The notes under the pieces are model-generated. The model saw only the letters and a list, made by a program, of their open reading frames with translations. It made no database searches and was not told the DNA's origin. From the IMG/VR virus record IMGVR_UViG_3300025389_001063: 64,000 nucleotides of DNA. One strand, 5' to 3'. This DNA comes from a virus. Lineage: Duplodnaviria; Caudoviricetes. Below, piece after piece: positions 1 through 27,392 of the stretch; within the stretch, counting starts at the first letter, position 1, and each line of letters begins with the position of its first letter. The translations under genes were made by a program, and so were the position numbers.

Positions 1-1
1 A

Positions 2-1057
2 GAGTCAGCCACAGCTGGTGCTACATCTGCCGGTAATGTCGCAACTCTTAACAGAGTTATTCTTCCAGTAATTCGTCGTGTTATGCCGACAGTTATTGCT
101 AACGAACTCGTTGGCGTTCAGCCAATGACTGGTCCAGTTGGCCAGATCCATACACTTCGCGTACGTTATGCTGACACTTCATCAGGTGCTGGTGTAAACG
201 CAGGCGAAGAGGCTCTAAGCCCATTCAAAATTGCTGCTGCTTACTCAGGTAACGAAGTAAGTGCAACACCAAGAGCTAACTCAACTGCATCACTCGAAGG
301 TACAGCTGGTAAGCGTCTAAGCATCCAGATCTTAAAGCAGGTCGTAGAAGCTAAATCACGTAAGCTCAGCGCACGTTGGACTTTCGAAGCTGCTCAGGAT
401 GCTCAGGCACAACAAGGTATCGATATTGAAGCAGAAATCATGGCAGCACTTGCTCAGGAAATTACTGCTGAAATCGATCAGGAAATCCTAAGTTCACTTC
501 AAACACTTGCTGGTACAGCCGTTGAAACATACGACCAATCAGTAGTAAGTGGTGTTGCAACATTCGTTGGTGACGAACATGCTGCTCTTGCAGTTCAGAT
601 CAACCGTGTAGCTAACCTCATCGCTCAACGTACACGTCGCGGTGCTGGTAACTGGGCAGTTGTTTCTCCGTTCGCTCTAACTATCCTTCAGTCAGCAACT
701 ACTTCAGCATTTGCTCGTACTACTGAAGGTACTTTTGAGGCTCCAACAAACACCAAGTTCGTTGGTACACTCAACAGCTCAATGAGAGTTTATGTTAATG
801 CTTATGCATCAGACAGCACACCAGTTCTCATTGGTTACAAAGGTTCAAGTGAATCAGACGCTGCTGCGTTCTACTGCCCATACATTCCACTAATGTCAAG
901 CGGTGTTGTACTTGATCCATCAACTTTCGAACCAGTTGTTAGCTTCATGACACGTTACGGATATGTAGAGCTCAGCAATGCAGCTTCATCATTAGGTAAC
1001 GCTGCTGACTACCTCGGACTAGTTGGTGTAACAAACGGAACTGTAAAGTTTTCCTAA
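2..1057 (+). CDS. gp23: Major capsid protein, T4 gp23-like (5'-truncated by window edge)
   Basis: The frame is open from position 2 (ESATAGATSAGNVATLNRVILPVIRRVMP), upstream of the track's Met at 83. It has gp23 motifs GVQPMTGPVGQI, KSRKLSARWTFEAAQD, EITAEIDQEI, FYCPYIPL and FMTRYG. Confidence 0.95.
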   Translation, partial: ESATAGATSAGNVATLNRVILPVIRRVMPTVIANELVGVQPMTGPVGQIHTLRVRYADTSSGAGVNAGEEALSPFKIAAAYSGNEVSATPRANSTASLEGTAGKRLSIQILKQVVEAKSRKLSARWTFEAAQDAQAQQGIDIEAEIMAALAQEITAEIDQEILSSLQTLAGTAVETYDQSVVSGVATFVGDEHAALAVQINRVANLIAQRTRRGAGNWAVVSPFALTILQSATTSAFARTTEGTFEAPTNTKFVGTLNSSMRVYVNAYASDSTPVLIGYKGSSESDAAAFYCPYIPLMSSGVVLDPSTFEPVVSFMTRYGYVELSNAASSLGNAADYLGLVGVTNGTVKFS

Positions 1058-7513: not shown

Positions 7514-7524
7514 TTTACCCTCTG

Positions 7525-7532
7525 GATAAATA
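7525..7532 (+). promoter_or_regulatory. T4-late-type promoter motif GATAAATA
   Basis: Intergenic, about 100 nt upstream of ATG 7633. Confidence 0.6.
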
Positions 7533-7632
7533 TTATTAACGCCGGACAATACCAACAAAGTCTGGATGTCTAAACTGTGGAAACCCGCAATGTAAGGTGG
7601 TTAGCCGTGAAACTCGGTGGTGAGGAGCGTTG
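7533..7632 (+). promoter_or_regulatory. Putative structured 5' leader
   Basis: GC-richer 100-nt leader with hairpins CCGGAC/GTCTGG, TGTGG-aaac-CCGCA and CCG-tgaaact-CGG, ending next to SD GAGGAG. Confidence 0.35.
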
Positions 7633-10600
7633 ATGACGGTCGTTGGTCGTATCTCAGGCCCGCTCTTAAAAGCAAATCTTCTCCGAGATGGAGTTAATTT
7701 AGCTTTTGAGACTAGCCTTCTTTATTTAGACGTTAATAACCGACGCATTGGTATCAATACCAGTTCACCTACACACGATTTACATGTAAACGGAACATTA
7801 AGAACTACTAACATTGATGGATTAACTTCTCTCACTGTTGGGGCAAATTTTCTTCTAAGCGGAAATACTTTATCAACTAGTGGATCAACACTAACACTAA
7901 GTTCAACATCTGGTGGAGTTATCTATCAAAATAACTTAACAGTAAGTGAAATTAATATTCAATCAAATATTATTTCAACAAATACTACAAATACAGATTT
8001 ACAATTAGTAGCTAACGGAACAGGAAAAATTTCAGTTTATTCTGATATGCTTGTTCAAGGAAATATACATGCTACAGGTAATATTACTGCTGATGGTAAT
8101 ATTATTATTGGTAATCAACCATCAGATATCGTAACTTTTAATGCAGATATTGCTAGTAATATTATTCCTAAGACAACAAACACTTATGATTTAGGATCAA
8201 CATCAAATCGTTGGAATAATCTATGGACTAATACAATTAATGCTAATACCATTAGCACAACTAGTTTAACAATAAACGGTATTAACATTTTACAAGGACA
8301 AGGAAATATTCTCTATGTTGCTACAAATGGTAGTAATTCTAACAACGGTATTTCTCAAAATAGTCCATATGCAACACTACAATATGCTTTATCACAAGCA
8401 ACTTCTGGAACTACAGTTTACATATATCCAGGAACTTATCAAGAAATATTACCTTTATCTATACCTTCTGGAGTTTCTATTAAAGGTATTGAACCAAATA
8501 CTGTTATAATTACTCCGACACCTTCTACAAGCAGTAATGACGTATTCTTAATAGATGGGCAAACAACTGTTGAAGATTTAACAATAAAGAATTTTTATTA
8601 TAATTCCTCTGCAAATACAGGATACGCTTTTAAATTAAAAAATGGATTTAAAGTAACAACAAAATCACCTTATATTAGAAATGTTTTTGTTATTACATCT
8701 GGATCTGTTACAAGCAACTCAGATCCTAAAGGATTTTTAACTGGAGATGCAGGTAAAGGAATATATTTTGATGGATCAGTTGCTGATTCAACTAGCAATT
8801 ATGTTTCTTGCTTAGTAGATAGCACTAATTTTATAACTCCAGGTGTGGATAGTATAACCGCAACAAACGGTGTTCGTTTAGAAATTGTAAATTCAAATAC
8901 ATATTATAGTAATAGAGGAATTTATGCTTATGTTTCCTCATCACAAGGTCGCGCTGGCAATGCATACACAGTTCTTAGAGTTAGTGGTGCAACAGGATCT
9001 TATAGTGTTGGAAGTACTATAAGTTATTATGTAAGTGGATCAGTAGTAGCTACCGGAACTATCTATTCAATAGGAACAGATGGAAAAATATATATTTCTG
9101 GATATTCTCCTGGATTTGTTCAAGCAACAACTGTTAATGGAATTTTACAAACACAAGATATTAGATTTAGTACTGGAGCAACTGCTCAATATATAACTTT
9201 AGCAGATTATAGAAATTTTGGAGCAGAAATTAGAGCAGTAGGTTCTGGAAACTTCTACGGAAATTATGGTGTAGTTGGTAACGGAATTGGTGTTTATATT
9301 GATCTTTTAACACAGAGTGTTTTTTATGTTGGTTCTGGAAATAATGATAGCAATGATCCAACAACAGCAATTCAAGCAAATGAAATTGTAAGTCTTAATA
9401 ATGCTCTTATAGTTTATACTGATACTAATCACAATGGTGATTTTAGAGTAGGTGGTCTTTTTTATGTAAATCAAGAAACTAATGATGTTGCATTTAATAA
9501 TGTTAATCTTAGAGTTAATGGACCATACGGCATAACATTAGTTAATGGATCTAATTCGTCAAGTATTACTCCTTATCAAATTACTACAGGAAATTTAACA
9601 GTAGCAAATAATACAATTAGTAGTACATCAGGTAACATTAATCTTAGTGCAGCTAATAATACTATTAATTTACAAAATGATACTTATGTAACAGGTTCTT
9701 TAACTGTTTCAGGTACTACAAATATAAACGGAAATATAACACTTGGATCATCGTCTTCAAATACAATAAATTTCGTTGGCAGCATAGCAAGTGATCTTAT
9801 TCCTTTAGCAAATAATACTTATAATTTAGGTAATTCTTCATATTCGTGGAGTAATATATACGCTAAAACTGCAAATATATCAAATGTTAATATAACCAAT
9901 AATAATATTCAAACAATTTCTACAGGTTCGAATCTTTATTTGAGTGGAAACGGAACTGGATCTGTTAATATTGGTAGTTTTAGTATAAATCAAAATACTA
10001 TTTCTGTATCTTCTAGCAATGATTTTATCATTACACCTGGTACAGGTAAAATAGTTAATATATCTTCAACAGGATCATTACAATTACCATCTGGAACAAG
10101 TTTACAAAGACCTACTGCTGTAGCAGGGATGATCCGTTACAATACTGATAATCATAATTATGAAGGTTATAATGGTTCTAATTGGATTGTATTAAATGGA
10201 TTATATGATGTCGCTCAGACAACTTATATAACACCAGAATTAACACCTGGAGCAGGTGATCAAACATTCCGTTTTTATATAGGTAATACACAAGTTGCAG
10301 ATTTAAATTCTACAAGATTTAATGTTAATGGAGTTACTGTTGGTAATACATACATCAGTAACAACGTTATAGGAACTACATCAAATACAGATTTAACTAT
10401 TAATTCATCATCTGGAAATATTAATATAGAATATTTTCGAATAAATGGTAGTTCAATTACTAATACTGTTTCCAATAGTATTACAACTATTTCACAAAGC
10501 GGAACAGGATATTTTAAAATAAGTGGTACTGGTGGTTTTGTTATACCTTCTGGAAACAGTCTAGGAAGACCTTCAGTACCAGAAATAGGTTTTTCCAGAT

Positions 10601-10731
10601 ATAATACAGACGATGGTCGTATTGAAGTATGGAACGGAGCATCATGGGTTTCGGCAGGTGGATCATCTATCGGTGTTTCCTATAACGATGCCCAGCAAAT
10701 TGCAGTACAGATAGCGTTAATGTTAGGATAA
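7633..10731 (+). CDS. Tail fibre/spike protein with beta-helix region, paralog of 4034..7513
   Basis: Collinear with the 4034 protein. ATG 7633 is preferred over TTG 7630 (SD GAGGAG at 7622-7627). Two PxG..RP..RYN..W motifs; C-terminal AQQIAVQIALMLG. Confidence 0.7.
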   Translation: MTVVGRISGPLLKANLLRDGVNLAFETSLLYLDVNNRRIGINTSSPTHDLHVNGTLRTTNIDGLTSLTVGANFLLSGNTLSTSGSTLTLSSTSGGVIYQNNLTVSEINIQSNIISTNTTNTDLQLVANGTGKISVYSDMLVQGNIHATGNITADGNIIIGNQPSDIVTFNADIASNIIPKTTNTYDLGSTSNRWNNLWTNTINANTISTTSLTINGINILQGQGNILYVATNGSNSNNGISQNSPYATLQYALSQATSGTTVYIYPGTYQEILPLSIPSGVSIKGIEPNTVIITPTPSTSSNDVFLIDGQTTVEDLTIKNFYYNSSANTGYAFKLKNGFKVTTKSPYIRNVFVITSGSVTSNSDPKGFLTGDAGKGIYFDGSVADSTSNYVSCLVDSTNFITPGVDSITATNGVRLEIVNSNTYYSNRGIYAYVSSSQGRAGNAYTVLRVSGATGSYSVGSTISYYVSGSVVATGTIYSIGTDGKIYISGYSPGFVQATTVNGILQTQDIRFSTGATAQYITLADYRNFGAEIRAVGSGNFYGNYGVVGNGIGVYIDLLTQSVFYVGSGNNDSNDPTTAIQANEIVSLNNALIVYTDTNHNGDFRVGGLFYVNQETNDVAFNNVNLRVNGPYGITLVNGSNSSSITPYQITTGNLTVANNTISSTSGNINLSAANNTINLQNDTYVTGSLTVSGTTNINGNITLGSSSSNTINFVGSIASDLIPLANNTYNLGNSSYSWSNIYAKTANISNVNITNNNIQTISTGSNLYLSGNGTGSVNIGSFSINQNTISVSSSNDFIITPGTGKIVNISSTGSLQLPSGTSLQRPTAVAGMIRYNTDNHNYEGYNGSNWIVLNGLYDVAQTTYITPELTPGAGDQTFRFYIGNTQVADLNSTRFNVNGVTVGNTYISNNVIGTTSNTDLTINSSSGNINIEYFRINGSSITNTVSNSITTISQSGTGYFKISGTGGFVIPSGNSLGRPSVPEIGFSRYNTDDGRIEVWNGASWVSAGGSSIGVSYNDAQQIAVQIALMLG

Positions 10732-11523: not shown

Positions 11524-14500
11524 ATGGCTGAGTTTAAAATAGGAAGATTGAGATTTGTATGGCAGGGAACATGGACTACTAGTACTAGCTATGTTAAAGA
11601 CGATGTTGTTCGATTCGGTGGTAAAACATATGTATGTTTGGTAGGAAATACTTCCGGCACTTTCTATACAGATCTTGCTAGTGGTTATTGGTCATTAATG
11701 GCTGATGGATTTTCTTATCAAGGAACATGGACAACAGCAACTTCATACAAAATAGGTGACGTTGTTAGAAATGGTGGTCAATCTTATATTTGTGTTACAG
11801 GAAATACTTCCGGCGCAACTTTTGCAGGTGACTCGGCTTATTGGAATTTATTAGCAGGTGGTATTTCTTGGAGAGGTACTTGGACACCGGCAACACTTTA
11901 TAATGTTAATGATATTATTATATTTGGTGCTATTACATTTATTTGTACAACTGCAAATACTAGTTCTTCAAATTTTGCTACAGATCAATCTTCGTATTGG
12001 ACAATTTTTGCACAAGGAACTCAATTTGTTAATACATGGAACAATTCTACTCAATACTCAGCAGATAGTATTGTAACTTATGGTGGTTATACTTACGTTT
12101 CATTGCAGACTAATACAGGACAAGTTCCGCCGTCTAGCCCTAGTTATTGGTCAGTTTACACAACTGGTTATAGTAATCAAGGTACATTTAGTTACGGAAC
12201 AACATACAAAGTAGGTAGTGTTGTTCAATACGGTGGTAATACATATGTTGCTATTCTTGATAATACTAATCAGTATCCAACTAATGTTACATATTGGTCA
12301 ATAGTAGCATATGGTCTAAATGTTAGAGGAACATTTAGTTACGGAACACAATACAATCCAAACGATATTGTTGTTTATGGTGGTACAACTTACTATGCAT
12401 TACAAGCAAATATCAATGTTTATCCTTCTGCATTAGGATCAAACTGGAAGGTATTATCGTCAGGTCTTTCTAATAGAGGAACATGGTCAAATTCAACAAA
12501 TTATTTTGTTAATGATTTAGCTTCTTATGGTGCAAACATTTATATTGCTACACAAGATAATACAGGTCAAACACCAAGCACTTCAGCTTCATATTGGTCA
12601 GTATTTAATTATGGATATAACTATGCAGGAACATGGACTTCATCAACTGCATATAAATTAGGTCAGGTTATTACATTTGGTGGTTCTCTATATCAAGCAC
12701 TATCAGACAATACTAATCAAACACCGGGTAATGTAACAATAACTGTTACTGCTACAACTACTGGTACAAACTTAATTACAGCAAGTAGCACAACAGGTTT
12801 AGCAGCTAATCAGCCAATAGTATTTGCTTCTAGTGTTGGAAATCTTGTAGCAGGTACAACTTATTATATTTTATCAGGTTTCTCAGGAACACAATTTCAA
12901 GTAAGTTCTACAATAGGCGGTACAGCATTTAGTTTATCAACAGCAGGACCTGTCTCAATTAGTGCTACACAATATGGAACTACATATTGGTCAAAATTAT
13001 CTTTTGGTATTAAGAACAGAGGTACTTGGGTAACTTCAACATCATATAACGTTGACGAAATTGTAATACATGGTGCAAATGTATACATTTCATTAATAGC
13101 ACATACATCAGGTACTTTTTCATCAGATTTAAGCGCAAGCAAATGGCAAATACTTGCTAGTGGCTTAGCATGGAGAAATACTTGGGCTTCTTCTACTGTT
13201 TATTATGTAAACGACTTAGTTGTTGGTCCATCAGGATCTGTTTATATTGCACTACAAGATAATACTTCTAGCGGTACTTTTAGTACTGATTTAGGTGCGG
13301 GTTATTGGCAGATATTTGTACAATATAATTCATTCTCTCCTCCATCATACTCAACTCCAGGAACAGCATTAACAGTTGCATCGGGAGGTGCATCTCTTAG
13401 TTGGTTGAACCCAACTGGTTCTACTAATGTTCTTTATGTTGGTCCAGGTGGTGTTGATAGTGTTTCAGGTGGTTATGGTACAAGTTTAGCATTACCTTTT
13501 GCAAGTATTAGATATGCTTGTACTCAAGCAAGTTCAGGATACACAATTTTTGTCAAATCAGGAACATATAATGAATTTCTTCCAATTACTGTTCCAGCAG
13601 GTGTTGCAGTTATTGGTGATAACGTTAGAACAACATTTGTTAATCCAGTTAGCGGAACTAGCGTAACAACTACAGTTACTCAAGTTTCATCAACTGGTAA
13701 CTTAATTACAGCAAGTAGTACAGCAAGTTTCATAGCAAATGCACCAATAACATTTAGTGCTAATCTAGGTAATCTTGTTGCAGGTACTGTTTATTATATT
13801 GTAAGTGGTTTTGGTGCAACTACTTTCCAAGTAAGTTTAACATCAGGTGGTTCAGTTTTTAATCCAGGAACTGCTACAGGATCAATCAGTGCTACACAAT
13901 ACGGTGACTTAACTGGTTTAATTCCAAACAATCAATCAACAATGTTTAAACTAAGTGATAATACTTCTCTTCGTGAAATGACATTCCAGAATATGACTGG
14001 TTGGGTTCCAGGTGGAACAGCAAACGACATTACAACATCAACTCCTAAAGGTATCTATATTGGATTTAATTCAGGAGCAATTACTAGACCACCGAGTGTT
14101 TCAAATTGTACAACAAGTACGGCTTCAGGAGCAATCGGTGCTTATCTAGATGGTTCAGTAGTTACTGGATTAAAAACAGCAAGTTTCCGTTATTTTAACG
14201 TTCAAAGTGATACAGGTGTTGGTATTTGGGCTACAAATAATGCAAGACCTGAAGTAATTACAAGCGCAACATCATATTGCTATTTCAGTTATGCTGCTAC
14301 AAATGGTGGTTTTATAAGACTTAACAATTGTAAAACAAACTGGGGTACTTATGGTTTAACTTCTAGAGGTTATCTATCTTCAGAAACTGCAATTACTGGT
14401 AATGTTGTTGGACAACAATTAAACTTTACATATAACACAGGTAATATTAACGTAGGTGATACTGTTACTTCAGTAACTAGTGGTGGTACTGCTACAGTTA

Positions 14501-16434: not shown

Positions 16435-19400
16435 ATGACAACAGCGGCAAAATATGGCGCACAAGACTTAAACGGTAATCCATTCAATTACCAACAGTTA
16501 GTTCCACTACCAAGTACAAACCCAAGTACTACAAATACCGTAGTTAATACCAACATCACTAACAGAGCAGCATATGATGCCAGAGTTAGAGTTGCTTTAA
16601 CTAATACCCCAATTGGATCACAAGTTGTTTCAAACGTTCATGGATCGCAGTCATTTGTTGCACAACAGAGTGCAGCATCAACACTTGTTGAAACACAACA
16701 AGTTTTAACAATTGATACTGCATCAGCAATTACTAATGCATTTTCAACAGCATCATATGTTGTTACAGCAACTACTGAAAATACAAACGTTATTACAGTA
16801 TCAAGTACTGCAACATTTACAGTTGGTCAACCAGTTGTATTCAGTGCTTCGGTTGGTAACTTAACAGCAGGTACAGTTTATTATATCCTAACTATTCCTA
16901 GTTCAACAACATTTACTGTTTCTCCAATTTGGAACGGACCAGTTCAAATGTTAACTACTAGTACATTTCCTATGATTGTCCAACAAACTGTAACTAACCT
17001 GTCAGTTGGTATGCCAATTAACTTCCACGGTACTACATTTGGTTATGCTTTTTATAACATGAACTATTATGTTGCAAGTTTACCAGGTGGTTCAAATGGT
17101 ACAACATTTACTATTTCATTATTCCCAGGTGGTCCAACATTACCTTTAATTTCTGCAATTGGTACAATGTCCTGCGTTCCAGTAGTTACTCCAGTTGCTA
17201 ACCCACAAACCGCTCAGTATCCAACTGCAATGACTTCAGCAATTGCACTTAATACAACTGCTCAGTCAGGCTACTATAATACTTTACAAGGTATTACTGT
17301 AATAGCATCAACAGCATCAACTAACGTATTAACTACAGCATCATTTTCGATTACTGCATCAACTGCTGCTTCAGGTACATTAGGTTTTGGTTATTTAACA
17401 ACTAGTGGTAACGCATACCTCTTAACAGCAGGACAACCAATTGTATTCAACGCAACAGTTACTGGTTCTGCTCTTTATGCTAACATTACATATTATGTTC
17501 ACTCAGTATTAAGTTCTACAACATTTACTGTTAGTACTTCTTATAACGGTAATCCATTCTCAATAGCAACTAATGCTAGTATCAGTGGTGTTACAATGTA
17601 TCTAAGTACAAACTACCTTCAGACTAACCAGCAGATAATTTTCACTGGTACTTCTTTTGGTAATATTACTCCAAATACTCCATACTATATTTCAACAGTT
17701 CCAAGTAATAACACATTTACTGTTTCAACTTGGCCAGGTGGACCAGTATTTCCTTTAACAACTACCACAGGTACAATGGTTGCATCGGCGTTTGTTCCTC
17801 CAACAGTTCCACAACTTGTTTTTGGTAGTTCTCAAGCAGGTGTAACTCTAAACATTAGTGCTACAACTACTGGTACAAACTTAATTACTGCTACTAGTAT
17901 AACTGGTTTAGTAGCAAACCAACCAATCGTATTCAGTGCTAGTATTGGTGGTCTTATTGCTAATACAACTTACTATGTTGTAAGTGGTTTTGGTGGAACT
18001 ACATTCCAGGTAAGTGCAACACAAGGTGGTACTGCATTAAGTTTAACATCTGGTACAGGTACATTAACTGCCCAAGCATTACCATATTTTAACACTTTTT
18101 CAACAACTGTTACAGCAACTACAGCAAGTACAAACTTAATTACTGTAACAAATACATCAAACTTTGTTCCAGGACAACCAGTTGTATTTGCTTCTGCTGT
18201 TGGTGGACTTAGTGCTAATACTGTTTACTATGTATTAAACGTTTACAGTTTAACACAATTGGTTGTTTCAACAACACAAGGCGGTGTAGCATTCCCTCTA
18301 ATCACTACTACAGGTCAGTCTGTAGCAATGTCTCAAGCAACTACTGGTTTAGCAACAAACCAACCGTTGCAGTTTGCTACCGTAACAATTTCAGTTACAG
18401 CAACATCGTCAACTGGTAATTTAATTACTTGTAATAATACTGTAAATCTTGTAGCAAACCAGCCAATAGTATTCAGTGGAACAATTGGTACTATTACAGG
18501 TGGTACAGTTTACTATGTGTCAGCAGTTACAGGTGGTAGTACTACTACATTTACTATCAGCCAAACATCGGGTGGTGCTGTATACGGCATGTCCAATGCT
18601 TCAGGTTCCGTAACGGCTCAACAAGGTACATTCTCTGGATTAGTTCCAGGACAGGTATACTATGTATACAGTGTTCCTTCACTAACACAAGTTGTAGTTT
18701 CAAGCATCCATGGTGCGCCAACTCCTCTTACATTAACTACTGTAGCAGCAGGTTCTATGCTTGCTACATTCCAGTCAGTTATTCCTACAATTACACTAGG
18801 AACATCAACTGCAACTGGTACAGTTTATCCTTTAAACAACACTTATACAACTTCAACATATTCAATAAGCAGCACTACTACAACTAACGTTGTTATTGGT
18901 TCTGCAGTTCCACTTATGACAGGTCAGCCAGTTACATTCTTTATCGGTGGTTCACTTGCTAATTCGAACGGTATTGTTGCATTTGTATCAGTTACAGCAA
19001 CTACATCAGGAACTAACGTAATTACATTAGCAAGTGCTACTGGTCTTTATGTTGGTCAAGCAATTGTGTTTGGTGCTAGTGGTGGTGGTATTATTACAGG
19101 TACAGTTTATTATATTACATCGATTTCAGGTGCAAATATTACTGTATCAACAACACCATATGGTACAAACCTTACACTAACAACTGCTACAGTATCATTT
19201 ACTGGTGTTCCAACTTATTACATCACATATTATGATAACCCAACTAACTCTATACAGATATCTGCAACATACGGTGGTCCAATTGTTCCATTAACAGCAG
19301 GTATTCCAGGTAGTAGTACAGTACAACATGCAACTACTAACCTTCTTGCTGGGCAACCAATATATGTAACAGGTACAGCATTCGGTGGTACTACTACTAA

Positions 19401-22400
19401 TACTACTTACTATGTAAGAACTATTCCATCTGCAACACAGTTTACAATTTCAACTTCACCATTTGGACAGATCTCTACATTAACAGCAACAACTGGTACA
19501 ATGCCAACATTAATTGGTCCAAGACCAGTAATAACAATTCAGTCAAGTGTTTCATCAAACCAGTTAGCAACACAGACTTATGCAGTTACAGCAACTACAG
19601 CTACAACTAACTTAATTACTGTATCAAATACATTTGCTTTAACAGTAGGTATGCCAGTTGTATTCAGTGGTGCTTTAGGTAACTTAGTCAGTGGTATGAT
19701 TTACTATGTTGCAAGTATTCCAACAGCAACAGCATTTTCAGTTTCACCAACACTAGGTGGAAATACATTTGCTCTTGCTACAGCAACAGGTTCTGTAAAC
19801 GTACAACAGGCTACATCACTATTGTACATTAACCAAGAAATACAGTTCCAAGGATTTACTTATCCACTTAGTACAGCAACATCAACTGGTATTACATTTG
19901 GTACTACATATTTTATTAACAGTATTGTGTCTACTACAACCTTTACAATTTCAACAGCACAAAACGTTGCCGGTACATCTGCAACTACTGCTACTGTAAC
20001 AGGTGGTAACATAATTCTTGCTAACCCAATTGTTAATAACATTGTTGACGTATTTGCTTACACAACAAATCCTGTTACTGTAACAGCTACATCAAGTACA
20101 AGTCCAACATATTATCTAACTTGTGCTAATACAGTTAACTTAGCAGTTGGACAACCAATTATATTCACAGGTACTACATTATTAGGCGGTGTATCTGCAA
20201 ATACAGTTTACTATGTAAACTCAATTGCAAGTACTACACAGTTTAATATTTCATCTACATATGGTGGTCCAGTTGTAGCATTAACAACAGGTAGTGGTAC
20301 GATGTCAGTTCAACAAGCAACATCTGGTTACTCCGCTAACCAAACTGTTATATTGAACTCACCAACTGTAACTATTACTGGTACAAGTTCATCAGGTAAC
20401 TTATTAACTTGTAATACTACAAACAACTTAATAATTGGTCAGCCAATTGTATTCGGTAATATGGCACAAGGTACTGCTAGTATTGGTGGTGTTGTTGCTG
20501 GTACAACTTACTATGTATTAAGTACACCAAGTACAACAACATTTACAGTATCAGCTACTCCAAGTGGATCTGCACTTACTTTAACTACTACTTCAACACA
20601 GTTTGCAGGACAGCAAGGTATATTCGGTCAGCAATATAATACTAATGGTCAGAACTGGGTAGTTCAAAGTACACCAAGTTTAACATCACTTATACTTTCA
20701 AGAGTAGGTTCAAGTGTTACACAGTCTGGTTTAGGACTATTTCCACTACCAGCAGTTGCACCACTTGTAGTAACTGCTACATCAGGATCTAGTCCATATT
20801 ATATTACAATATCAAGTACTGCATCACTTACAGTTGGACAACCTGTAATATTTGTTGGTACAACATTTGGTGGTTTAACTGCTTCAGTTAACAGTCTTAT
20901 TAACCCAACTGTTTACTATGTAAATGCAATTGCAAGTTCTACTACATTTAACGTTTACACTACAACTCCAGGTACTCCAGTTGTATTAACAGGTGCTAGT
21001 GGTAACTGTATTCTTGTTCCGTTAAGTGCAACAGGTATTGCTACTGCTTATTCATACAACGTAACACCAACTCTTGCTATTGGTGCTACAACAACAAGTA
21101 CTAACATTTTAACTACACAGGCTTACAGCGTTTCACTAGGTGCATCAGGTACAAACTTGATATCAATATCAACATCAGGTGGTACAACAGCATTTGTACT
21201 TGGACAACCAATTACATTTGCTGCAAATACTGGTAGTATTACAGGTGGTATTACTTACTATATCTCTTCGATACAGTCAACTACCACATTTAGTATTTCA
21301 CAGTTCTTTGGCGGACCAGACTTGATTATTACAGGTTCCGGTAGTACTACAATGAACCAAATAACATCATTCTTACAGATTAATCAACCAGTAACATTTA
21401 CTGGTACATTATTAGGTGGTTTGACTGCTGCTTCTAACTATGCTGTAACATACTATGTAACTAACGTAGTAAGTAGTACAACATTTGTTGTCAGTACTCA
21501 GTCAGGTGGTGTAGGCACACAGTTATCACTCACAACAACAACTGCTACAGCACCAAGCTTTATGATGGCACAAGTTGGTTCTTATAGATCTCTTAGTTTT
21601 AACTCAACTAACAACGGTACTTCAGTACTGCAAACTGAAAGTTTTTCTGTAACTGCTACTGCCGCAATTAACGGTGGTCAGATGCTTGTTACAGCAAGTA
21701 ACACATTTGCAATGTATCCAGGTATGGCTCTATCGTTTACAGGTACATCGATCGGATTTTTATCAAATAACGTTCTTTACTATGTAGTATCTGTATATGA
21801 CGAAAAAAGATTTATTATTTCTACTGCACCAGTTGGGTCAATTGGTATTGCAACAAACGGTACAACTGTTCTACAGACAGCAAACGGTGTTGCACTAACA
21901 CAACAGACTACAACAGGTACTATGTCAGCTGTACAAAGTTTAGCAAGATTACAACAGAACCAAGCAGTTGTATTTTATCCAACTATTGGTGGTGTAATGA
22001 TTGCAGGCTTAACACAGGGTACAATTTACTATGTTAACCCTACATTTACTAATCCAATGAGTGGCACATTGTCAGTATCAACTACACCTGGCGGTTCGGC
22101 ATTTACATTCTCAGCAGTTAACAATACTGGTACTACGGCGGCTATGATAATGGTTCCACTATCAACATGGACTGTTGCGTCAAACGTAATGATCACACAG
22201 CCAATGCCAATTTATAGTGGTACAACATCATCAAACGTGTTCACTACTGGTAACTTAACTATTGTTACAAATACATCATACGGTACAAACTATATCACTT
22301 GCTATAGTACATCTGCACTAGCAGTTGGTATGCCAGTTGTATTTGGTTCGGCTATTGGTTCACTAGCATCTGCTACAACATACTATGTTGTTCAAATTAT

Positions 22401-23934
22401 TAACGCAACACAGTTTACAGTATCACAAACTTGGGGTGGTCAAGTTGCTATTCTAACACAAGGTACTGGTGCTGTTACACTTCAACCGTCGACAGCATTA
22501 ATGACGGTAGGTCAACCAATGTTAGTTACAGGAACTGGATATATTTCATTTACTAGTAGCTATACCGTTGCATATAATCCAGCTTTTTATGTTGCTTCGA
22601 TTCCAAGTTCTACAACATTTACATTAGCTTCATCGTTAGCTAATGCGTTAGCAGGCACATCACTTGCAATCTCAACCACAACATATGGTTATATGACTAT
22701 GACTGGATCAACTGCAAACTACTTAACAAATATGTCAAACGTAATTGGTCCATCACAACCAATTGCATTTACTGGAGCACAGATTAACGTAACTATTGTT
22801 AACGGACAGAATCTATATACTCCAAATAGTACAATATTATTAAGTGCTAACCAAGCAGTAGTGTTCACAGGTTATGGTTATACTAGCCAAACAAGTGGTA
22901 CTATACAGCCAGGTACAGTTTACTACATTAAGGCTATCTTAGATAATAATACATTTACTCTAAGTGCAACACCAGGTGGTACTGTAATAACTTGGGTAAC
23001 TGAAACTAATACTTTAACAATGCAAATTGTAAGTAACTTAGGTTCATCATTAATACCTTACTCAACTTACTTTGTATTGGCAACACCAACTCCAAATACA
23101 TTCCAGATTTCAACATCTGCTGCAACTGCAAGTGGTTTAACATTAACAGTACCGTCCGCTGTAACACAAACAGCAGGTAATACTATAGTTAACGTTGCAA
23201 GTAACATTGTTACACTTGCTCAAGCACAGGGTGCAACAAATACATTCTTTGTACCAAACACTCCTGTAACATTTACAGCATATAGTGGTACAACGTTTGG
23301 TGTAGGTGCAACAGCAGGTACAAGTACATTCAACGGTGCTCCAGTTCCAGGTACTCCGTTCATAGTAACAGCAGTTGCTACAAACGGTAACATTACATTG
23401 AACACATCTGCAGCTAGTTTACTAGTAATAGGTCAACCGATAGTGTTTACAAACCCACTATCACCGATTACATCTTCAACTGGTGTATCACCATTCGTGA
23501 CATATTATGTTCTTAGCATTTCAACTACAACAATTACAGTTGCTTCAAGTTGGCCAAGCACTACAGCAGTAACATTCTCCGCTGCTTGGTCTTCACAGTC
23601 AACAGTTGGTGGTTTCTATGCTATACCACATTACTATGTTAAAGCAGTACTTGATAGCAGAAGAATTATGCTATCGGCTACACTAAATGGTTCAACTTGG
23701 CCAATTACAAACGCATCTGGTACTGTTCCAGGTAACTATGCTACTGGTACAAACATTATGACAATCAACTCACTACCGTCATATACTGACTTTATTGAGC
23801 ACGATGTTTCATTATCACCAAACGGTACATTTGAAAGAACAGGTATACTTGTTCCTCCAAATACTTACTTGTATGTTTCAAGTAATCAGCCACAGGTAAC
23901 TGCGGTAGCAATAGGTATCCAAGAATCAGTATAA
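16435..23934 (+). CDS. Giant Thr/Ser-rich virion protein with about 27 ~80-aa beta modules (2499 aa)
   Basis: About 27 occurrences of the core QPxVF..G.L..GTxYYV..I.S.TTFTVS; very few charged residues; termini resemble the 109-114 aa adaptor proteins. Confidence 0.8.
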   Translation: MTTAAKYGAQDLNGNPFNYQQLVPLPSTNPSTTNTVVNTNITNRAAYDARVRVALTNTPIGSQVVSNVHGSQSFVAQQSAASTLVETQQVLTIDTASAITNAFSTASYVVTATTENTNVITVSSTATFTVGQPVVFSASVGNLTAGTVYYILTIPSSTTFTVSPIWNGPVQMLTTSTFPMIVQQTVTNLSVGMPINFHGTTFGYAFYNMNYYVASLPGGSNGTTFTISLFPGGPTLPLISAIGTMSCVPVVTPVANPQTAQYPTAMTSAIALNTTAQSGYYNTLQGITVIASTASTNVLTTASFSITASTAASGTLGFGYLTTSGNAYLLTAGQPIVFNATVTGSALYANITYYVHSVLSSTTFTVSTSYNGNPFSIATNASISGVTMYLSTNYLQTNQQIIFTGTSFGNITPNTPYYISTVPSNNTFTVSTWPGGPVFPLTTTTGTMVASAFVPPTVPQLVFGSSQAGVTLNISATTTGTNLITATSITGLVANQPIVFSASIGGLIANTTYYVVSGFGGTTFQVSATQGGTALSLTSGTGTLTAQALPYFNTFSTTVTATTASTNLITVTNTSNFVPGQPVVFASAVGGLSANTVYYVLNVYSLTQLVVSTTQGGVAFPLITTTGQSVAMSQATTGLATNQPLQFATVTISVTATSSTGNLITCNNTVNLVANQPIVFSGTIGTITGGTVYYVSAVTGGSTTTFTISQTSGGAVYGMSNASGSVTAQQGTFSGLVPGQVYYVYSVPSLTQVVVSSIHGAPTPLTLTTVAAGSMLATFQSVIPTITLGTSTATGTVYPLNNTYTTSTYSISSTTTTNVVIGSAVPLMTGQPVTFFIGGSLANSNGIVAFVSVTATTSGTNVITLASATGLYVGQAIVFGASGGGIITGTVYYITSISGANITVSTTPYGTNLTLTTATVSFTGVPTYYITYYDNPTNSIQISATYGGPIVPLTAGIPGSSTVQHATTNLLAGQPIYVTGTAFGGTTTNTTYYVRTIPSATQFTISTSPFGQISTLTATTGTMPTLIGPRPVITIQSSVSSNQLATQTYAVTATTATTNLITVSNTFALTVGMPVVFSGALGNLVSGMIYYVASIPTATAFSVSPTLGGNTFALATATGSVNVQQATSLLYINQEIQFQGFTYPLSTATSTGITFGTTYFINSIVSTTTFTISTAQNVAGTSATTATVTGGNIILANPIVNNIVDVFAYTTNPVTVTATSSTSPTYYLTCANTVNLAVGQPIIFTGTTLLGGVSANTVYYVNSIASTTQFNISSTYGGPVVALTTGSGTMSVQQATSGYSANQTVILNSPTVTITGTSSSGNLLTCNTTNNLIIGQPIVFGNMAQGTASIGGVVAGTTYYVLSTPSTTTFTVSATPSGSALTLTTTSTQFAGQQGIFGQQYNTNGQNWVVQSTPSLTSLILSRVGSSVTQSGLGLFPLPAVAPLVVTATSGSSPYYITISSTASLTVGQPVIFVGTTFGGLTASVNSLINPTVYYVNAIASSTTFNVYTTTPGTPVVLTGASGNCILVPLSATGIATAYSYNVTPTLAIGATTTSTNILTTQAYSVSLGASGTNLISISTSGGTTAFVLGQPITFAANTGSITGGITYYISSIQSTTTFSISQFFGGPDLIITGSGSTTMNQITSFLQINQPVTFTGTLLGGLTAASNYAVTYYVTNVVSSTTFVVSTQSGGVGTQLSLTTTTATAPSFMMAQVGSYRSLSFNSTNNGTSVLQTESFSVTATAAINGGQMLVTASNTFAMYPGMALSFTGTSIGFLSNNVLYYVVSVYDEKRFIISTAPVGSIGIATNGTTVLQTANGVALTQQTTTGTMSAVQSLARLQQNQAVVFYPTIGGVMIAGLTQGTIYYVNPTFTNPMSGTLSVSTTPGGSAFTFSAVNNTGTTAAMIMVPLSTWTVASNVMITQPMPIYSGTTSSNVFTTGNLTIVTNTSYGTNYITCYSTSALAVGMPVVFGSAIGSLASATTYYVVQIINATQFTVSQTWGGQVAILTQGTGAVTLQPSTALMTVGQPMLVTGTGYISFTSSYTVAYNPAFYVASIPSSTTFTLASSLANALAGTSLAISTTTYGYMTMTGSTANYLTNMSNVIGPSQPIAFTGAQINVTIVNGQNLYTPNSTILLSANQAVVFTGYGYTSQTSGTIQPGTVYYIKAILDNNTFTLSATPGGTVITWVTETNTLTMQIVSNLGSSLIPYSTYFVLATPTPNTFQISTSAATASGLTLTVPSAVTQTAGNTIVNVASNIVTLAQAQGATNTFFVPNTPVTFTAYSGTTFGVGATAGTSTFNGAPVPGTPFIVTAVATNGNITLNTSAASLLVIGQPIVFTNPLSPITSSTGVSPFVTYYVLSISTTTITVASSWPSTTAVTFSAAWSSQSTVGGFYAIPHYYVKAVLDSRRIMLSATLNGSTWPITNASGTVPGNYATGTNIMTINSLPSYTDFIEHDVSLSPNGTFERTGILVPPNTYLYVSSNQPQVTAVAIGIQESV

Positions 23935-23990: not shown

Positions 23991-24398
23991 ATGAGAAAAC
24001 AACCTAGAATTAGTTCAGCACCGATAATACAATTACCAGCAATACAACAAGGATATTATTATTATCCGTTAGGTGCACCAGGTAATGGTACATATGCTAC
24101 TATTCCTATTAATACTGTAGGAACATTGATTCAGATGACTAACGCTCCTACAGCAAATACTTGGTATTTAGATTTTACTGGTGTTTCACTATCAATTAAC
24201 TTTGCAATAACTATAACTGTTTTAATACCACAAGGTGGCACAGCATATAATCCAACAGTTTTAGTAAACGGTTATACAGTAACAGTAATTGGTAGTGGTG
24301 CTTCAGGAACAACAAGTAGAACTAATGCTTATTATTATACAATTTTATGCACAGGACCTAATCAGTACTCTGTATTTGGTTATGCTCAACCAGTTTAA
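23991..24398 (+). CDS. Virion protein with fibre-tip-type C-terminal domain (135 aa)
   Basis: Paralog of 24420 (MRKQPRIS.APIIQ..AIQQG); C-terminal ITVLIPQGGTAY..YYYTI domain. Confidence 0.7.
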   Translation: MRKQPRISSAPIIQLPAIQQGYYYYPLGAPGNGTYATIPINTVGTLIQMTNAPTANTWYLDFTGVSLSINFAITITVLIPQGGTAYNPTVLVNGYTVTVIGSGASGTTSRTNAYYYTILCTGPNQYSVFGYAQPV

Positions 24399-24419: not shown

Positions 24420-25328
24420 ATGAGAAAACAGCCTAGAATCAGTACAGCACCAATAATTCAACAACAAGCAATACAACAAGGAGTTTATTCTCTTAGTCCC
24501 GTTATATCTACAACATCTATAAGTGTTACAAATACAACTGCAACTACTAACCTTATTACAACAGGAGCAGCAGTTTTAGGTTTCGTTAGAGAAGGACAAG
24601 CAATAACATTTGGTTCTGCTATCGGTGGATTGAGTACTAGTATCGTTTATTATGTAATACTTGGATCAATTACTTTAACTACTTTTCAAGTTAGTGCAAC
24701 TCCAGGTGGGCCACCAGTTGTTTTATCAACAGCAGCCGCGGCGGTAACTGCTACAACTTATACATATATCAGTGTTCCTGTTAACAGTCTTGGAACTATT
24801 GTTAATTTAACAACTTCTGTTACAAGCCTTATAGGTCTTTTAGGAACAGTATTTGGTCAATCAACAACATTCGCAACTGTTACACTTACAAATGGTACAA
24901 CTACAGGACTAGTTATTGGACAGGCTATAACAGGAACCGGCGCCGGCGGCAGTTTAGGTAGTAATACTACTATTACAAGTATAACAAGTTCTACAACTTT
25001 TACTATAACAACTAGTGGTGGTAATCCTGCAAACGGAGCAGTTACAAATATACAAACAACTACTCCTCAAATTATTAACGCTCCATCGACTTGGTATTTA
25101 GATATAACAGGAATACCTAATTCTATTAACTATCAAACTACAGTAACGGTATTAATATCACAAGGTGGTACAGTATACAACCCAACATTAATAGTAAACG
25201 GAATCACACCTACTCTTATTGGAACAGGAAACGGTGGAGCAACTAGTAGAATTACGGCTTATTATTATTCGATTATTTGTACTGCTCCTGATCAATATTC
25301 ATATTCTGTAATTACTTTTGCAGTTTAA
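24420..25328 (+). CDS. Paralog of 23991..24398 with two inserted ~80-aa modules (302 aa)
   Basis: Aligns to the 23991 protein at both ends; inserts at about 24504..24758 and 24813..25080. Confidence 0.75.
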   Translation: MRKQPRISTAPIIQQQAIQQGVYSLSPVISTTSISVTNTTATTNLITTGAAVLGFVREGQAITFGSAIGGLSTSIVYYVILGSITLTTFQVSATPGGPPVVLSTAAAAVTATTYTYISVPVNSLGTIVNLTTSVTSLIGLLGTVFGQSTTFATVTLTNGTTTGLVIGQAITGTGAGGSLGSNTTITSITSSTTFTITTSGGNPANGAVTNIQTTTPQIINAPSTWYLDITGIPNSINYQTTVTVLISQGGTVYNPTLIVNGITPTLIGTGNGGATSRITAYYYSIICTAPDQYSYSVITFAV

Positions 25329-25394: not shown

Positions 25395-27392
25395 ATGAGC
25401 AGTCTTAATCTAAACAACCTATTTTTGCAAGGTCCAAGAAATACTATTAAATTACAAAAGGACATATCCTTCAAAAATCCTTGGATTCAAATTTATTCAA
25501 ATACTACAATAGATACTTGGTATGTAGGTGACTTCTCAAGCGCATCATATTTTATTACAGTTGAATATGATTCAAATCACAAAGAATGTATGCATGTTCT
25601 AGTTATTGCTCGACCAGCACAAGCAACTTATTCAATATATGGTAGAACAAGTATTGATAATCAACTAGTTACATTATCTGCTACAGTTTCAAATAGTCAA
25701 TTAACACTATCTGCTACAGCAAATACAGGATATTCTGGAGCAAAATTAAGTTTCTCTGTTTCTTATAATGAAACAATGCAACCCCTATCATATCCTACCA
25801 CAGTAACAAATCTTCCTCCTGGATCAATACCTGTACCCCCAACTAACACAGTTCCTACAACTTTTGGACAAATTGCAGTTTCTGGGCAGTCAACAGTTTA
25901 TGCAACTTCTTCGAGTGACACTCTTGCTTTTGTCGCTGGAACAGGAATTAGTCTTACAACTAATAGTACTTCGAAATCTGTAACAATTACTTCATCATTT
26001 CCATTCTTTCAAAATATTCAAGTTTCAGGACAACCAACTTTAATTCCTGCAACTGCTAGTAGTAGCTTAACTTATTCATCAAGCAACGGTATCTCTCTTA
26101 CAACAAATGCATCAAGTAATACAGTTAATATCGGATTAGGAACATTACCTACACTTTCAGTTTCAGGATCATCAACTTTTACTGGAGCAATTACTGCATC
26201 TAGTTTGATTACAGCAAATACTGGAATCTTAGTTAATAATGGATTAACTGTTAACAATGGCGCAACGTTTAATAACGGAACGACAGTTAATACTTCATTA
26301 GCAGTGAACGGAACTACATTATCAACTGGAACAATAACTTCTAATTCAAATATAACTTCTACAATAGACGTATCAGGACTTAATAATTATGGAGCCTTTA
26401 ATTATGGAAACATAAGATATACTGATGTGAATATATTAGCAAGTTTCACGTCATCTCCTAATAGTTACAATCAAATTATTATAGAAAATAATTCTTCAGG
26501 AACATCTGCAACTGCTAATCTTATTGTAAGCAATAATCAAGGAACTGCTACTACAAACTATGGTAATTTGGGCATTAACAGTAGCGGATGGACTGGAACT
26601 TTAGGAACATCTAGCATTAATGCACCGGGAGTTGTTTATCTTGCATCTGCTTCTAGCGATTTAGTTATAGGAACATTTGTATCAAATAATATTCGATTTG
26701 TTACAAATAGTGGAGCAGATGCTGTAACAATTGATACATCAAATACATTAAATGCTTTACAAGGATTTAAATCATTTAGTACTACTACACTAAGTCCTGC
26801 AAGTGCTAATGTTATTATAAGTCCAACAGGTACTGGTAATGTTACTATAAGTCCATCGGGAACTGGAACAGTTGCTATCAATCCAACTTCAGTAGGTACA
26901 ATTGACAATATGACTTTTGGTTCAATTGTTCCTAGAGGCGGCACTTTCACTACTGTTTCTTTTACAGATAGTATAACAGTAACAAACAATGTTAATACAT
27001 CAAATGTTTATGCAACCGGATTAAGTGATTTAAACAGAACATCTGAAACAGTTTTTGATGTAGCAAGTGGTGCTACAGTTTCATACAACTTCCAATCTGG
27101 ATCAATTTTTTATCATACATCTAATCCTGGACAAGACTGGACGGCATCATTCCTTAATTTACCTACTACTAGTGGTAGAGCTATTTCGATGACTATTGTT
27201 GTTCCTCAAGGATCAACTGCTTATAAAATAACTGGATGTACTATCGAAGGACTTGCTGCTACAATTAAATGGGCAGGAGGATTTACTACTCCTATAGGTA
27301 ATGCTAATAAAACAGATATATGGGCATTTACTCTTATAAGAAGAAGCGGTGGTTGGACAGTTCTTGGATCACAAAATCCAGGATTTGCATAA
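25395..27392 (+). CDS. Tail fibre-like protein (665 aa)
   Basis: Thr/Ser-rich shaft with ISP.GTG.V repeats. The C-terminal domain (MTIVVPQGSTAY..IKWAGG..P...ANKTDIWAFTL) is shared with 43265. Confidence 0.65.
   Translation: MSSLNLNNLFLQGPRNTIKLQKDISFKNPWIQIYSNTTIDTWYVGDFSSASYFITVEYDSNHKECMHVLVIARPAQATYSIYGRTSIDNQLVTLSATVSNSQLTLSATANTGYSGAKLSFSVSYNETMQPLSYPTTVTNLPPGSIPVPPTNTVPTTFGQIAVSGQSTVYATSSSDTLAFVAGTGISLTTNSTSKSVTITSSFPFFQNIQVSGQPTLIPATASSSLTYSSSNGISLTTNASSNTVNIGLGTLPTLSVSGSSTFTGAITASSLITANTGILVNNGLTVNNGATFNNGTTVNTSLAVNGTTLSTGTITSNSNITSTIDVSGLNNYGAFNYGNIRYTDVNILASFTSSPNSYNQIIIENNSSGTSATANLIVSNNQGTATTNYGNLGINSSGWTGTLGTSSINAPGVVYLASASSDLVIGTFVSNNIRFVTNSGADAVTIDTSNTLNALQGFKSFSTTTLSPASANVIISPTGTGNVTISPSGTGTVAINPTSVGTIDNMTFGSIVPRGGTFTTVSFTDSITVTNNVNTSNVYATGLSDLNRTSETVFDVASGATVSYNFQSGSIFYHTSNPGQDWTASFLNLPTTSGRAISMTIVVPQGSTAYKITGCTIEGLAATIKWAGGFTTPIGNANKTDIWAFTLIRRSGGWTVLGSQNPGFA

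What the first reader, a model, noticed from the sequence alone, without database searches (positions are those of the whole stretch)
16435..23934. Russian-doll protein: modules nested inside copies of themselves in a 2499-aa virion protein
Seen: the ~27 modules are not simply tandem. A complete module is repeatedly inserted into another at recurrent sites. Site A lies after N.(L/F)TT and before T.LxxxQP: 16750..16989, 18106..18339, 19573..19812, with similar cases near 17340, 21120, 21640 and 22255. Site B lies after QPxxF and before T(F)GxL..YYV: 18379..18627, 20362..20619, with similar cases near 18985 and 22780. One host module (ending VYYVYSVPSLTQVVVS) carries inserts at both sites. Removing an insert restores a normal module. 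Inference: recursive domain insertion yields a branched, tree-like surface protein rather than a linear fibre. I know of no described phage architecture like this.
Basis: partly seen in the sequence, partly recalled or inferred. Interest (0 to 1): 0.85.

Follow-up and report, generated by a model that had tools for sequence, protein, structure and literature searches.

The report
Self-nested beta-barrels in phage fibre protein
A 2,499-residue protein in the tail-fibre region of an uncultured jumbo phage is built from 27 copies of one small beta-barrel, about 13 of them sitting inside loops of other copies; this build is real and rare, but the principle is already known from cyanobacterial RNA polymerase and bacterial adhesins, and this scan has met it in other phage fibres.

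Summary
ORF 16435..23934 encodes 27 copies of a ~80-aa six-strand beta-barrel module that Pfam and PHROGs do not cover. Sixteen copies are contiguous. Eleven are split "hosts" whose pieces flank one or two complete copies, at two loops: after strand 2 (site A) and after strand 3 (site B). Nesting reaches three levels at aa 785-1025.

An AlphaFold2 model of one site-A pair (pLDDT 95.9, pTM 0.87) fits a barrel inside a discontinuous barrel. Across the family, an orphan N-piece lies upstream only where an N-less module follows (p = 4e-33). Site B rests on sequence order alone, because its model was inconclusive.

The interpretation needs correcting in three ways.
- Hosts and inserts are distinct old subfamilies, so one ancient two-barrel unit was duplicated; insertion did not recur repeatedly.
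- The protein is still a series of 14 top-level modules with short side branches.
- Precedents exist: the self-nested SBHM domains of cyanobacterial RNA polymerase Si3, and the split domains of RTX adhesins.

This scan has already found self-nested barrels in fibres of other phages. The module family is large (at least 3000 clusters). Neighbouring genes carry the module as a presence/absence cassette.

The parts
16435..23934 (+). ORF of 2499 aa (P0001): 27 barrel modules between conserved N- and C-terminal regions
16435..16701 (+). N-terminal region (aa 1-89), conserved in all family members
16702..17178 (+). Unit 1. Host H1 is aa 90-105 plus 186-248. Complete module I1 (aa 106-185, nt 16750..16989) is inserted at site A. 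This unit was modelled.
   Evidence: host 42-48 bits, HMM 3-80; AF2 and VIA-align
17287..17784 (+). Unit 2. Host H2 is aa 285-302 plus 391-450. Insert I2 (aa 303-390) is at site A.
   Evidence: host 66-79 bits
17836..18075 (+). Free-standing module T3 (aa 468-547); the closest relative of the two modules in the upstream gene
18076..18768 (+). Unit 4. Host H4 is aa 548-557 plus 633-648 plus 731-778. It carries two inserts: I4a (aa 558-632, site A) and I4b (aa 649-730, site B). The host N-part is weak.
18787..19509 (+). Unit 5, three levels. The outer host is aa 785-804 plus 969-1025. At its site A sits the inner host, aa 805-851 plus 927-968. At the inner host's site B sits the innermost module, aa 852-926.
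   Evidence: outer 52-59 bits, inner 32-34 bits
19531..20019 (+). Unit 6. Host H6 is aa 1033-1046 plus 1127-1195. Insert I6 (aa 1047-1126) is at site A.
   Evidence: 36-39 bits
20032..20754 (+). Unit 7. Degenerate host H7 is aa 1200-1212 plus 1294-1306 plus 1396-1440. Inserts are I7a (aa 1213-1293) and I7b (aa 1307-1395).
   Evidence: host only 11-17 bits
20755..21015 (+). Free-standing module T8 (aa 1441-1527)
21064..21552 (+). Unit 9. Host H9 is aa 1544-1563 plus 1644-1706. Insert I9 (aa 1564-1643) is at site A.
   Evidence: 49-57 bits
21640..22143 (+). Modules aa 1736-1815 and 1817-1903. They read as tandem, or as an insert plus a host; the case is ambiguous.
22195..22689 (+). Unit 11. Host H11 is aa 1921-1940 plus 2020-2085. 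Insert I11 (aa 1941-2019) is at site A.
   Evidence: 16-25 bits
22678..23154 (+). Unit 12. Host H12 is aa 2082-2115 plus 2203-2240. Insert I12 (aa 2116-2202) is at site B. The unit is conserved in all family members. It was modelled, and only the insert came out confident.
23158..23733 (+). Unit 13. Host H13 is aa 2242-2303 plus 2388-2433. Insert I13 (aa 2304-2387) is at site B.
   Evidence: 32 bits
23734..23931 (+). C-terminal region (aa 2434-2499), conserved in all family members
12757..12987 (+). Module inside a CBM5/12 repeat of the upstream tail-fibre gene (P0002 aa 412-488); absent from the ortholog
13666..13911 (+). Second module in the upstream tail-fibre gene (P0002 aa 715-796); absent from the ortholog
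24510..25070 (+). One complete and one degenerate module inside the 302-aa paralog (P0176) of the 135-aa protein P0175

Best explanation
P0001 is a surface fibre or decoration protein of a Rak2/Atu_ph07-type jumbo myovirus. It lies in the baseplate and tail-fibre gene cluster.

It is made of 27 copies of one ~80-residue, six-strand beta-barrel. The fold resembles the FCCH barrel of ubiquitin E1 and the inserted barrel of phage endosialidases. The first and last strands of such a barrel lie side by side, so a whole barrel can sit in a surface loop of another without disturbing it. In this protein, 13 barrels sit in the strand2-strand3 loop (site A) or the strand3-strand4 loop (site B) of 11 others.

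The result is a series of 14 top-level barrels. Most of them hold one or two side barrels through a double connection, and one node is three barrels deep.

The nested pairs are old. A two-barrel unit arose once (or a few times) and was then duplicated as a ~160-aa super-repeat. The module also moves as an in-frame cassette into other fibre genes.

The likely role (inference) is multivalent, lectin-like adhesion to host surface polysaccharide. The host barrels would form the axis and the inserted barrels would project sideways, as in the split domains of RTX adhesins.
For: - Sequence order. Full modules are flanked by the missing pieces of partial modules.
- Co-occurrence. An orphan N-part occurs upstream only where an N-less module follows, p = 4e-33 over 169 family proteins.
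- Structure. The AF2 model of aa 88-250 has pLDDT 95.9 and pTM 0.87, and the 16-residue orphan N-piece has pLDDT 93-97. The FCCH barrel superposes on residues 17..98, and also on a set spanning 1..163 with only 74-77 residues aligned.
- Conservation. Orthologs at 72-73% identity and relatives at 28-45% keep the same pattern. Modules are only 37% identical on average and there is no DNA tandem repeat, so the build is old and maintained.
- Ancient unit. Hosts and inserts are separate subfamilies, 187 of 191 by nearest neighbour.
- Cassette behaviour. The ortholog of the upstream fibre (68% identity) lacks exactly the two modules, 77 and 82 aa. P0176 is a P0175-like protein plus about 177 aa that hold the modules.
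- Gene context. Tail-fibre and baseplate PHROGs lie on both sides, and synteny is conserved in an ortholog contig.
- Fold precedents. FCCH-type barrels face outward on siphophage tail tubes (PMC13576161). A relative, P0027, has 12 N-halves, 1 full module and 12 C-halves in that order.
Against: - Site B has no confident structural support. The host part of the second model has pLDDT 33-68.
- A covariation test of 'true partner' halves against permuted halves was not significant for site B (p = 0.13) and only weak for the positive control, site A (p = 0.01). It therefore has little power.
- I could not inspect model coordinates. The discontinuous host barrel is inferred from aligned ranges and aligned lengths.
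- Z scores of 7-8 are in the range where a match may be only a common arrangement.
- Presence in virions, oligomeric state and binding function are all inferred.
Confidence: 0.7

Rival explanations
1. There is no true nesting. The protein is beads on a string with two module flavours, a long one with the N-terminal hairpin and a short one without it. The 'orphan' N-like strands are linker or extra strands of the neighbouring complete module.
For: Shifted excisions also produce full-length chimeric modules, so excision alone cannot tell the two readings apart. Individual orphan N-parts score weakly in P0001, between -0.5 and 10.5 bits. Host aa 548-557 has almost no N-part.
Against: Orphan N-parts occur upstream essentially only when an N-less module follows (p = 4e-33). 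In the AF2 model the orphan piece is confidently structured (pLDDT 93-97). The FCCH barrel fits a residue set that spans both ends of the fragment, while the insert already has all six strands.
Confidence: 0.1
2. For site B only: the N-half (about 35 aa) and the C-half (about 45 aa) are independent mini-domains that can be arrayed separately. 'N N C C' would then be a mixed array and not a barrel within a barrel.
For: The AF2 model of a site-B unit did not fold the host. The covariation partner test was not significant. In P0027 the halves form long uniform runs.
Against: Runs of N-halves always precede runs of C-halves, with a complete module between them. Counts match where detection is good: 12, 1 and 12 in P0027. 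Spliced site-B hosts align to the module HMM over nearly its whole length. No arrays of C-halves before N-halves were seen.
Confidence: 0.15
3. The split pieces are completed in trans. In an oligomeric fibre, orphan N-pieces of one chain would complement N-less modules of another chain (strand or half-domain swapping), giving an interlocked fibre.
For: Many phage fibres are interdigitated trimers (established knowledge). Nothing here tests the oligomeric state.
Against: The monomer model of the site-A pair is complete and very confident by itself. The insert's two ends must already be adjacent for the chain to continue, which places the host pieces together in cis.
Confidence: 0.05

Closest known systems
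Si3 insertion of cyanobacterial RNA polymerase beta' (eight sandwich-barrel hybrid motifs; crystal structure, PMC10895346)
   Same: Copies of one small beta motif are not in simple tandem. Four of the eight (SBHM-2 to -5) are built from distant stretches of the chain, with other copies in between. This gives an elongated arm in which the chain goes out and returns.
   Different: The protein, function and fold family are different. The E. coli SI3 entry appears only at Foldseek probability 0.02-0.03, and no Si3 chain is in the VIA-align lists. Here most nests are one level deep and are repeated in series, and the module also occurs free-standing.
Split domains of RTX adhesins (AhLap, MpIBP; PMC12077191)
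   Same: A beta-sandwich domain in the axis of a long surface protein is interrupted after an early strand by a complete domain. The inserted domain's termini are adjacent, so it projects sideways. This is the best functional analogy.
   Different: There the host is Ig-like and the insert belongs to another family (CBM, RTX roll, vWFA). Here host and insert are the same module.
FCCH-type six-strand barrel (ubiquitin E1; outward-facing domain of siphophage tail tube proteins, PMC13576161) and the inserted beta-barrel of phage endosialidases
   Same: These are the best structural matches. FCCH chains 4p22_B and 9mc4_A give Z 7.7-7.8, rmsd 2.3-2.5 and 75-77 of about 80 residues aligned. The phi92 endosialidase barrel gives Z 7.0, rmsd 2.0 and 21% identity. 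Both are themselves insertion or decoration domains.
   Different: Sequence does not support membership. P0001 and 61 single modules give no PF16190 hit. One relative reaches 26.7 bits against a cut-off of 29.5. No self-nesting is described for these domains.
Self-nested barrels in other phage fibre and baseplate proteins noted earlier in this scan (e1-5345196, e1-5337695, e1-5320722 and others)
   Same: The same kind of architecture is reported. One note describes a 2,944-residue protein of a freshwater T4-like jumbo phage, which is probably the same family as P0007 or P0009 here.
   Different: These are unpublished AI notes. I did not compare sequences with them, and several concern a different ~100-aa cyanophage module.

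Membership tests
Domain-in-domain (split-domain) architecture | The parent domain is discontinuous in sequence, and its pieces flank a contiguous complete domain | tested here: met
   HMM hits and spliced hosts. There are eleven hosts; one is degenerate and one has a weak N-part.
Domain-in-domain (split-domain) architecture | The displaced piece is present exactly where the downstream domain lacks it | tested here: met
   median 5.9 bits against 0.1 bits (no hit following) and 2.1 bits (complete module following), p = 4e-33; motif present in 47% against 3%.
Domain-in-domain (split-domain) architecture | The parent pieces fold into one domain in three dimensions (site A) | tested here: met
   AF2 model with pLDDT 95.9 and pTM 0.87. 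The FCCH barrel aligns to 17..98, and to 1..163 with 74-77 residues aligned. This is inferred from ranges; coordinates were not inspected.
Domain-in-domain (split-domain) architecture | The parent pieces fold into one domain in three dimensions (site B) | tested here: inconclusive
   In the model of aa 2076-2245 only the insert is confident. The covariation test had low power.
E1 FCCH domain (Pfam PF16190) | Six-strand antiparallel barrel that superposes on FCCH | tested here: inconclusive
   Z 7.7-7.8, rmsd 2.3-2.5, 75-77 of 80 residues aligned. Z below 8 may reflect only a common arrangement.
E1 FCCH domain (Pfam PF16190) | Match to the family HMM above the gathering score | tested here: not met
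   No hit for P0001 or for 61 single modules. Relative P0059 scores 26.7 bits against a cut-off of 29.5.
SBHM repeats of RNA polymerase Si3 | SBHM fold or sequence | tested here: inconclusive
   E. coli SI3 (4iqz) appears only at probability 0.02-0.03 and TM 0.12-0.13 in Foldseek. It is not among the 50 best VIA-align rows.
Simple tandem-repeat protein | Units lie head to tail, each complete before the next begins | tested here: not met
   Ten of the 14 top-level modules are interrupted. There is no DNA tandem repeat.
Phage tail fibre or virion surface protein | The gene lies in the baseplate and tail-fibre cluster with conserved synteny | tested here: met
   Upstream is a gene matching phrog_9851 (tail fiber) with CBM5/12 repeats. 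Baseplate wedge genes lie at 4034..10731 and the tail sheath at 52825..56262. The order is the same in ortholog locus L001.
Phage tail fibre or virion surface protein | The protein is present in purified virions | not testable with these tools
   The phage is uncultured, and the window's genome is not held.

The most novel reading that the evidence does not exclude
Self-insertion of this barrel may be a general and so far unpublished way by which phages build surface fibres. The family holds at least 3000 protein clusters that Pfam does not cover. Members range from shallow side-branched strings such as P0001 to 'out-and-back' rods in which up to 13 barrels are each assembled from an outgoing N-half and a returning C-half (P0027). 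In such a rod both chain ends sit at the base, and length changes by adding a level.
Probability: 0.35. Interest if true: 0.75.

Novelty: new variant of a known kind. Interest (0 to 1): 0.55.

Why it matters
Repeat proteins are almost always tandem, and annotation pipelines and domain databases assume contiguous domains. Here a very large phage protein family is missed by Pfam and PHROGs. Its members would be mis-parsed as 'partial' repeats.

If the nested build is confirmed, it would be a second natural system, after Si3, of one domain nested in copies of itself. It is abundant and varied in depth, so it is well suited to studying how domain insertion is tolerated and how such architectures grow.

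For phage biology it points to how jumbo phages may build side-branched adhesive fibres. It also shows that the barrel moves between fibre genes as an in-frame cassette.

Tried and rejected
- AF2 on a site-B unit (aa 2076-2245, 30 rows) gave pLDDT 68. Only the insert barrel was matched by VIA-align, so the result is inconclusive.
- A covariation 'partner' test used couplings learned from 826 contiguous modules. Site-B true partners scored -6.15 against -6.96 for permuted ones (p = 0.13). Site-A hosts, the positive control, gave only p = 0.01 across proteins and p = 0.11 within proteins. Held-out contiguous modules scored -4.9 against -10.7. The test has low power for split hosts and I do not use it.
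- Counting M and C tokens as brackets: the short M-part is under-detected, so strict balance could not be scored.
- Excision and re-scan as proof of nesting: rejected as insufficient after the shifted-excision control.
- Pfam and PHROGs gave no family for P0001, its termini, P0175, P0176 or P0177.
- tblastn and blastn of the gene against 50,697 phage records found no match; the low-complexity filter may contribute.
- The module profile against PDB sequences gave nothing significant. Foldseek against PDB gave nothing at E <= 0.001.
- I searched for a small 'adaptor' homolog of the N-terminal 92 aa, an idea from other first readers. Only two truncated fragments of the same family were found. An Atlas look-up of the C-terminus was uninformative.
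- The window's own genome is not held.
- Literature searches for a published phage example of self-nested barrels found none.
Full report
**What is there.** The window is part of a jumbo myovirus of the Rak2/Atu_ph07 type. It holds giant baseplate-wedge genes (4034..10731), a 1145-aa tail sheath (52825..56262) and many fibre genes, at about 35% G+C. ORF 16435..23934 is intact and encodes 2499 aa (P0001). It follows a 1625-aa tail-fibre gene (P0002: CBM5/12 repeats, phrog_9851). P0001 has no Pfam or PHROG match and no match in 50,697 deposited phage genomes.

**The module.** An HMM built from obvious copies and iterated converges on an ~80-column module. Its conserved landmarks are:
- an N-part, V-T-A-T..T-N-L-I-T;
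- a middle part ending G-Q-P-V-V-F;
- a C-part with Y-Y-V, T-F-T-V-S and G-G.

The AlphaFold2 models give six strands in the same order in every copy.

**Checking the observation.** P0001 gives 15-16 full-length hits. It also gives partial hits that start at about HMM column 20 or 38 and follow directly after a full hit, with no room for the missing columns. The missing pieces lie just upstream of the full hit.

After optimising boundaries, splicing out the full copies joins the pieces into near full-length modules:

| Host | Score (bits) |
|---|---|
| H1 | 42-48 |
| H2 | 66-79 |
| H9 | 49-57 |
| H6 | 36-39 |
| H13 | 32 |
| H11 | 16-25 |
| H12 | 21-22 |

At aa 785-1025 there are three levels. 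Removing 852-926 restores an inner host (32-34 bits). Removing that whole inner host (805-968) restores an outer one (52-59 bits).

The total is 27 modules. Sixteen are contiguous and 11 are split hosts. Fourteen are top-level and 13 are inserted. The pair at aa 1736-1903 is ambiguous (tandem fits), and the host at aa 1200-1440 is degenerate.

**A necessary caution.** Excisions displaced by +30 or +40 aa also create full-length chimeric modules, made of the insert's N-part plus the host's C-part. So 'excision restores a module' does not separate nesting from 'orphan strand plus tandem modules'.

The discriminating sequence test is co-occurrence. Over 169 family proteins, the 25 aa before a complete module score as an N-part (median 5.9 bits, 90% above 0) when an N-less module follows. 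The median is 0.1 bits when no module hit follows within 15 aa, and 2.1 bits when a complete module follows (Mann-Whitney p = 4e-33 against these two classes together). The motif N-x-hydrophobic-[ST]-[ST] is present in 47% of the first class and 3% of the modules with no hit following.

**Structure, site A.** The ~160-aa unit 'N-piece, complete module, rest of host' recurs. Ninety-six fragments from P0001 and its homologs align end to end. With that alignment, AlphaFold2 models aa 88-250 at pLDDT 95.9 and pTM 0.87, and the 16-residue N-piece itself has pLDDT 93-97.

I could not read coordinates, so I relied on VIA-align ranges.
- The 80-residue E1 FCCH barrel aligns to model residues 17..98: 4p22_B, 75 residues, rmsd 2.3, Z 7.7.
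- The same barrel also aligns to a set spanning 1..163 with only 74-77 residues aligned: 9mc4_A at Z 7.8 and 2v31 at Z 6.3.
- Ribosomal uL3-type barrels, which are themselves discontinuous, also align to 1..163.

The residues outside the insert number 81. My reading is that they form a second barrel of the same fold, built from both ends of the fragment.

**Structure, site B.** The C-terminal site-B unit (aa 2076-2245, 30 rows) gave pLDDT 68. A covariation partner test had too little power, even on the site-A positive control.

Site B therefore rests on sequence.
- The order N-half, complete module, C-half is conserved in every family member.
- Spliced hosts align to the HMM over most of its length.
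- A relative, P0027, has 12 N-halves (aa 817-1232), one complete module (1233-1312) and 12 C-halves (1318-1894) in that order (bracket string).

**How it arose.** Modules within P0001 are only 37% identical on average (maximum 52%). There is no tandem DNA repeat, and DNA copies are 60-80% alike. Orthologs from independent metagenomes (72-73% identity) and relatives at 28-45% keep the same pattern.

Site-A hosts and inserts are distinct subfamilies. Host-host and insert-insert identity is 46%, host-insert 39%, and a host against its own insert 39%. The nearest neighbour is of the same class in 187 of 191 cases. So the recurrent 'sites' reflect descent from an old two-barrel unit duplicated as a whole. 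They do not reflect repeated fresh insertions.

The module does move as a cassette, however. The ortholog of the upstream fibre gene (P0178, 68% identity) lacks exactly the two modules of P0002 (77 and 82 aa), and one of these sits inside a CBM5/12 repeat. The 302-aa protein P0176 is the 135-aa protein P0175 plus about 177 aa that hold a complete and a degenerate module.

**Family.** The module profile finds at least 3000 cluster representatives at E <= 1e-3, 747 at <= 1e-10 and 164 at <= 1e-30 among 1.84 billion proteins. Many are giants of up to 7951 aa. Nested patterns occur in many of them. None of the ten looked up carries a functional name.

Pfam sees nothing consistent in single modules. 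One relative comes close to E1_FCCH: 26.7 bits against a cut-off of 29.5. Close family members share conserved N- and C-terminal regions, while the array between them varies from about 600 to about 2970 aa. Foldseek against viral models finds the fold in cyanophage tail sheath, tail fibre and baseplate proteins.

**What it most likely does.**
- Shown: a chain of barrels with side barrels, encoded in the fibre cluster.
- Inferred: a virion surface fibre or 'hair'. Phages of this group carry whiskers or hair-like fibres on head and sheath (PMC7824862). Its barrels would act as weak, multivalent carbohydrate binders.

The inference leans on three precedents. FCCH-type barrels face outward on siphophage tail tubes (PMC13576161). 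The endosialidase barrel is an inserted lectin-like domain (established knowledge; structural match). RTX adhesins use split domains to project binding domains away from the fibre axis (PMC12077191).

**Comparison with what is known.** Self-nesting of one beta motif has been solved in cyanobacterial RNA polymerase Si3. There, SBHM-2 to -5 are built from distant parts of the chain around other SBHMs (PMC10895346). I took this lead from earlier notes of this scan and checked the paper myself.

The present module is not shown to be an SBHM or a Pfam FCCH member. It works like Si3 and like split-domain adhesins but belongs to neither family. I found no published description of self-nested barrels in a phage fibre. 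This scan, however, has already reported the same kind of build in several other phage genomes, one of them probably the same family.

Noticed in passing
window 12757..12987 and 13666..13911 (P0002 aa 412-488 and 715-796); L001:1579-5967: The two barrel modules in the upstream CBM5/12 tail-fibre gene are exactly absent from its 68%-identical ortholog in a related phage contig. The first sits inside a CBM5/12 repeat. Their closest relative is the free-standing module at 17836..18075 (61% aa, 69-75% nt).
   Followed up: yes
window 23991..24398 (P0175) and 24420..25328 (P0176); L001:13951-14601 (P0179, 217 aa): The adjacent paralogs share the first 23 aa (83%) and the last ~100 aa (56%). The longer one carries about 177 extra aa with one complete and one degenerate barrel module. 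The related phage has a 217-aa version at the same place.
   Followed up: partly
P0027 (3616 aa, ENA metagenome), aa 817-1894: Twelve consecutive N-halves, one complete module and twelve consecutive C-halves. This is either a 13-level nest (an out-and-back rod) or two matched arrays. Similar runs occur in P0051, P0056, P0060, P0078 and P0088.
   Followed up: partly
window 16435..16701 and 23734..23931: The N- and C-terminal regions of P0001 are conserved across the family, while the array between them varies about five-fold in length. Other first readers proposed that the two ends form one ~110-aa domain that holds the whole array. I found no small homolog and could not fold it.
   Followed up: partly
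L001:14698-19344 versus window 25395..27392: Downstream of the conserved block the two related phages differ. The ortholog contig has a Peptidase_S74 fibre protein and RCC1-repeat proteins where the window has a 665-aa Ser/Thr-rich fibre-like protein (P0177). This looks like a swapped receptor-binding cassette.
   Followed up: no
module family (alignment A2): At least 3000 cluster representatives carry the module, yet it has no Pfam or PHROG model. The nearest Pfam signals are sub-threshold: E1_FCCH, and End_beta_barrel at E = 0.019.
   Followed up: partly
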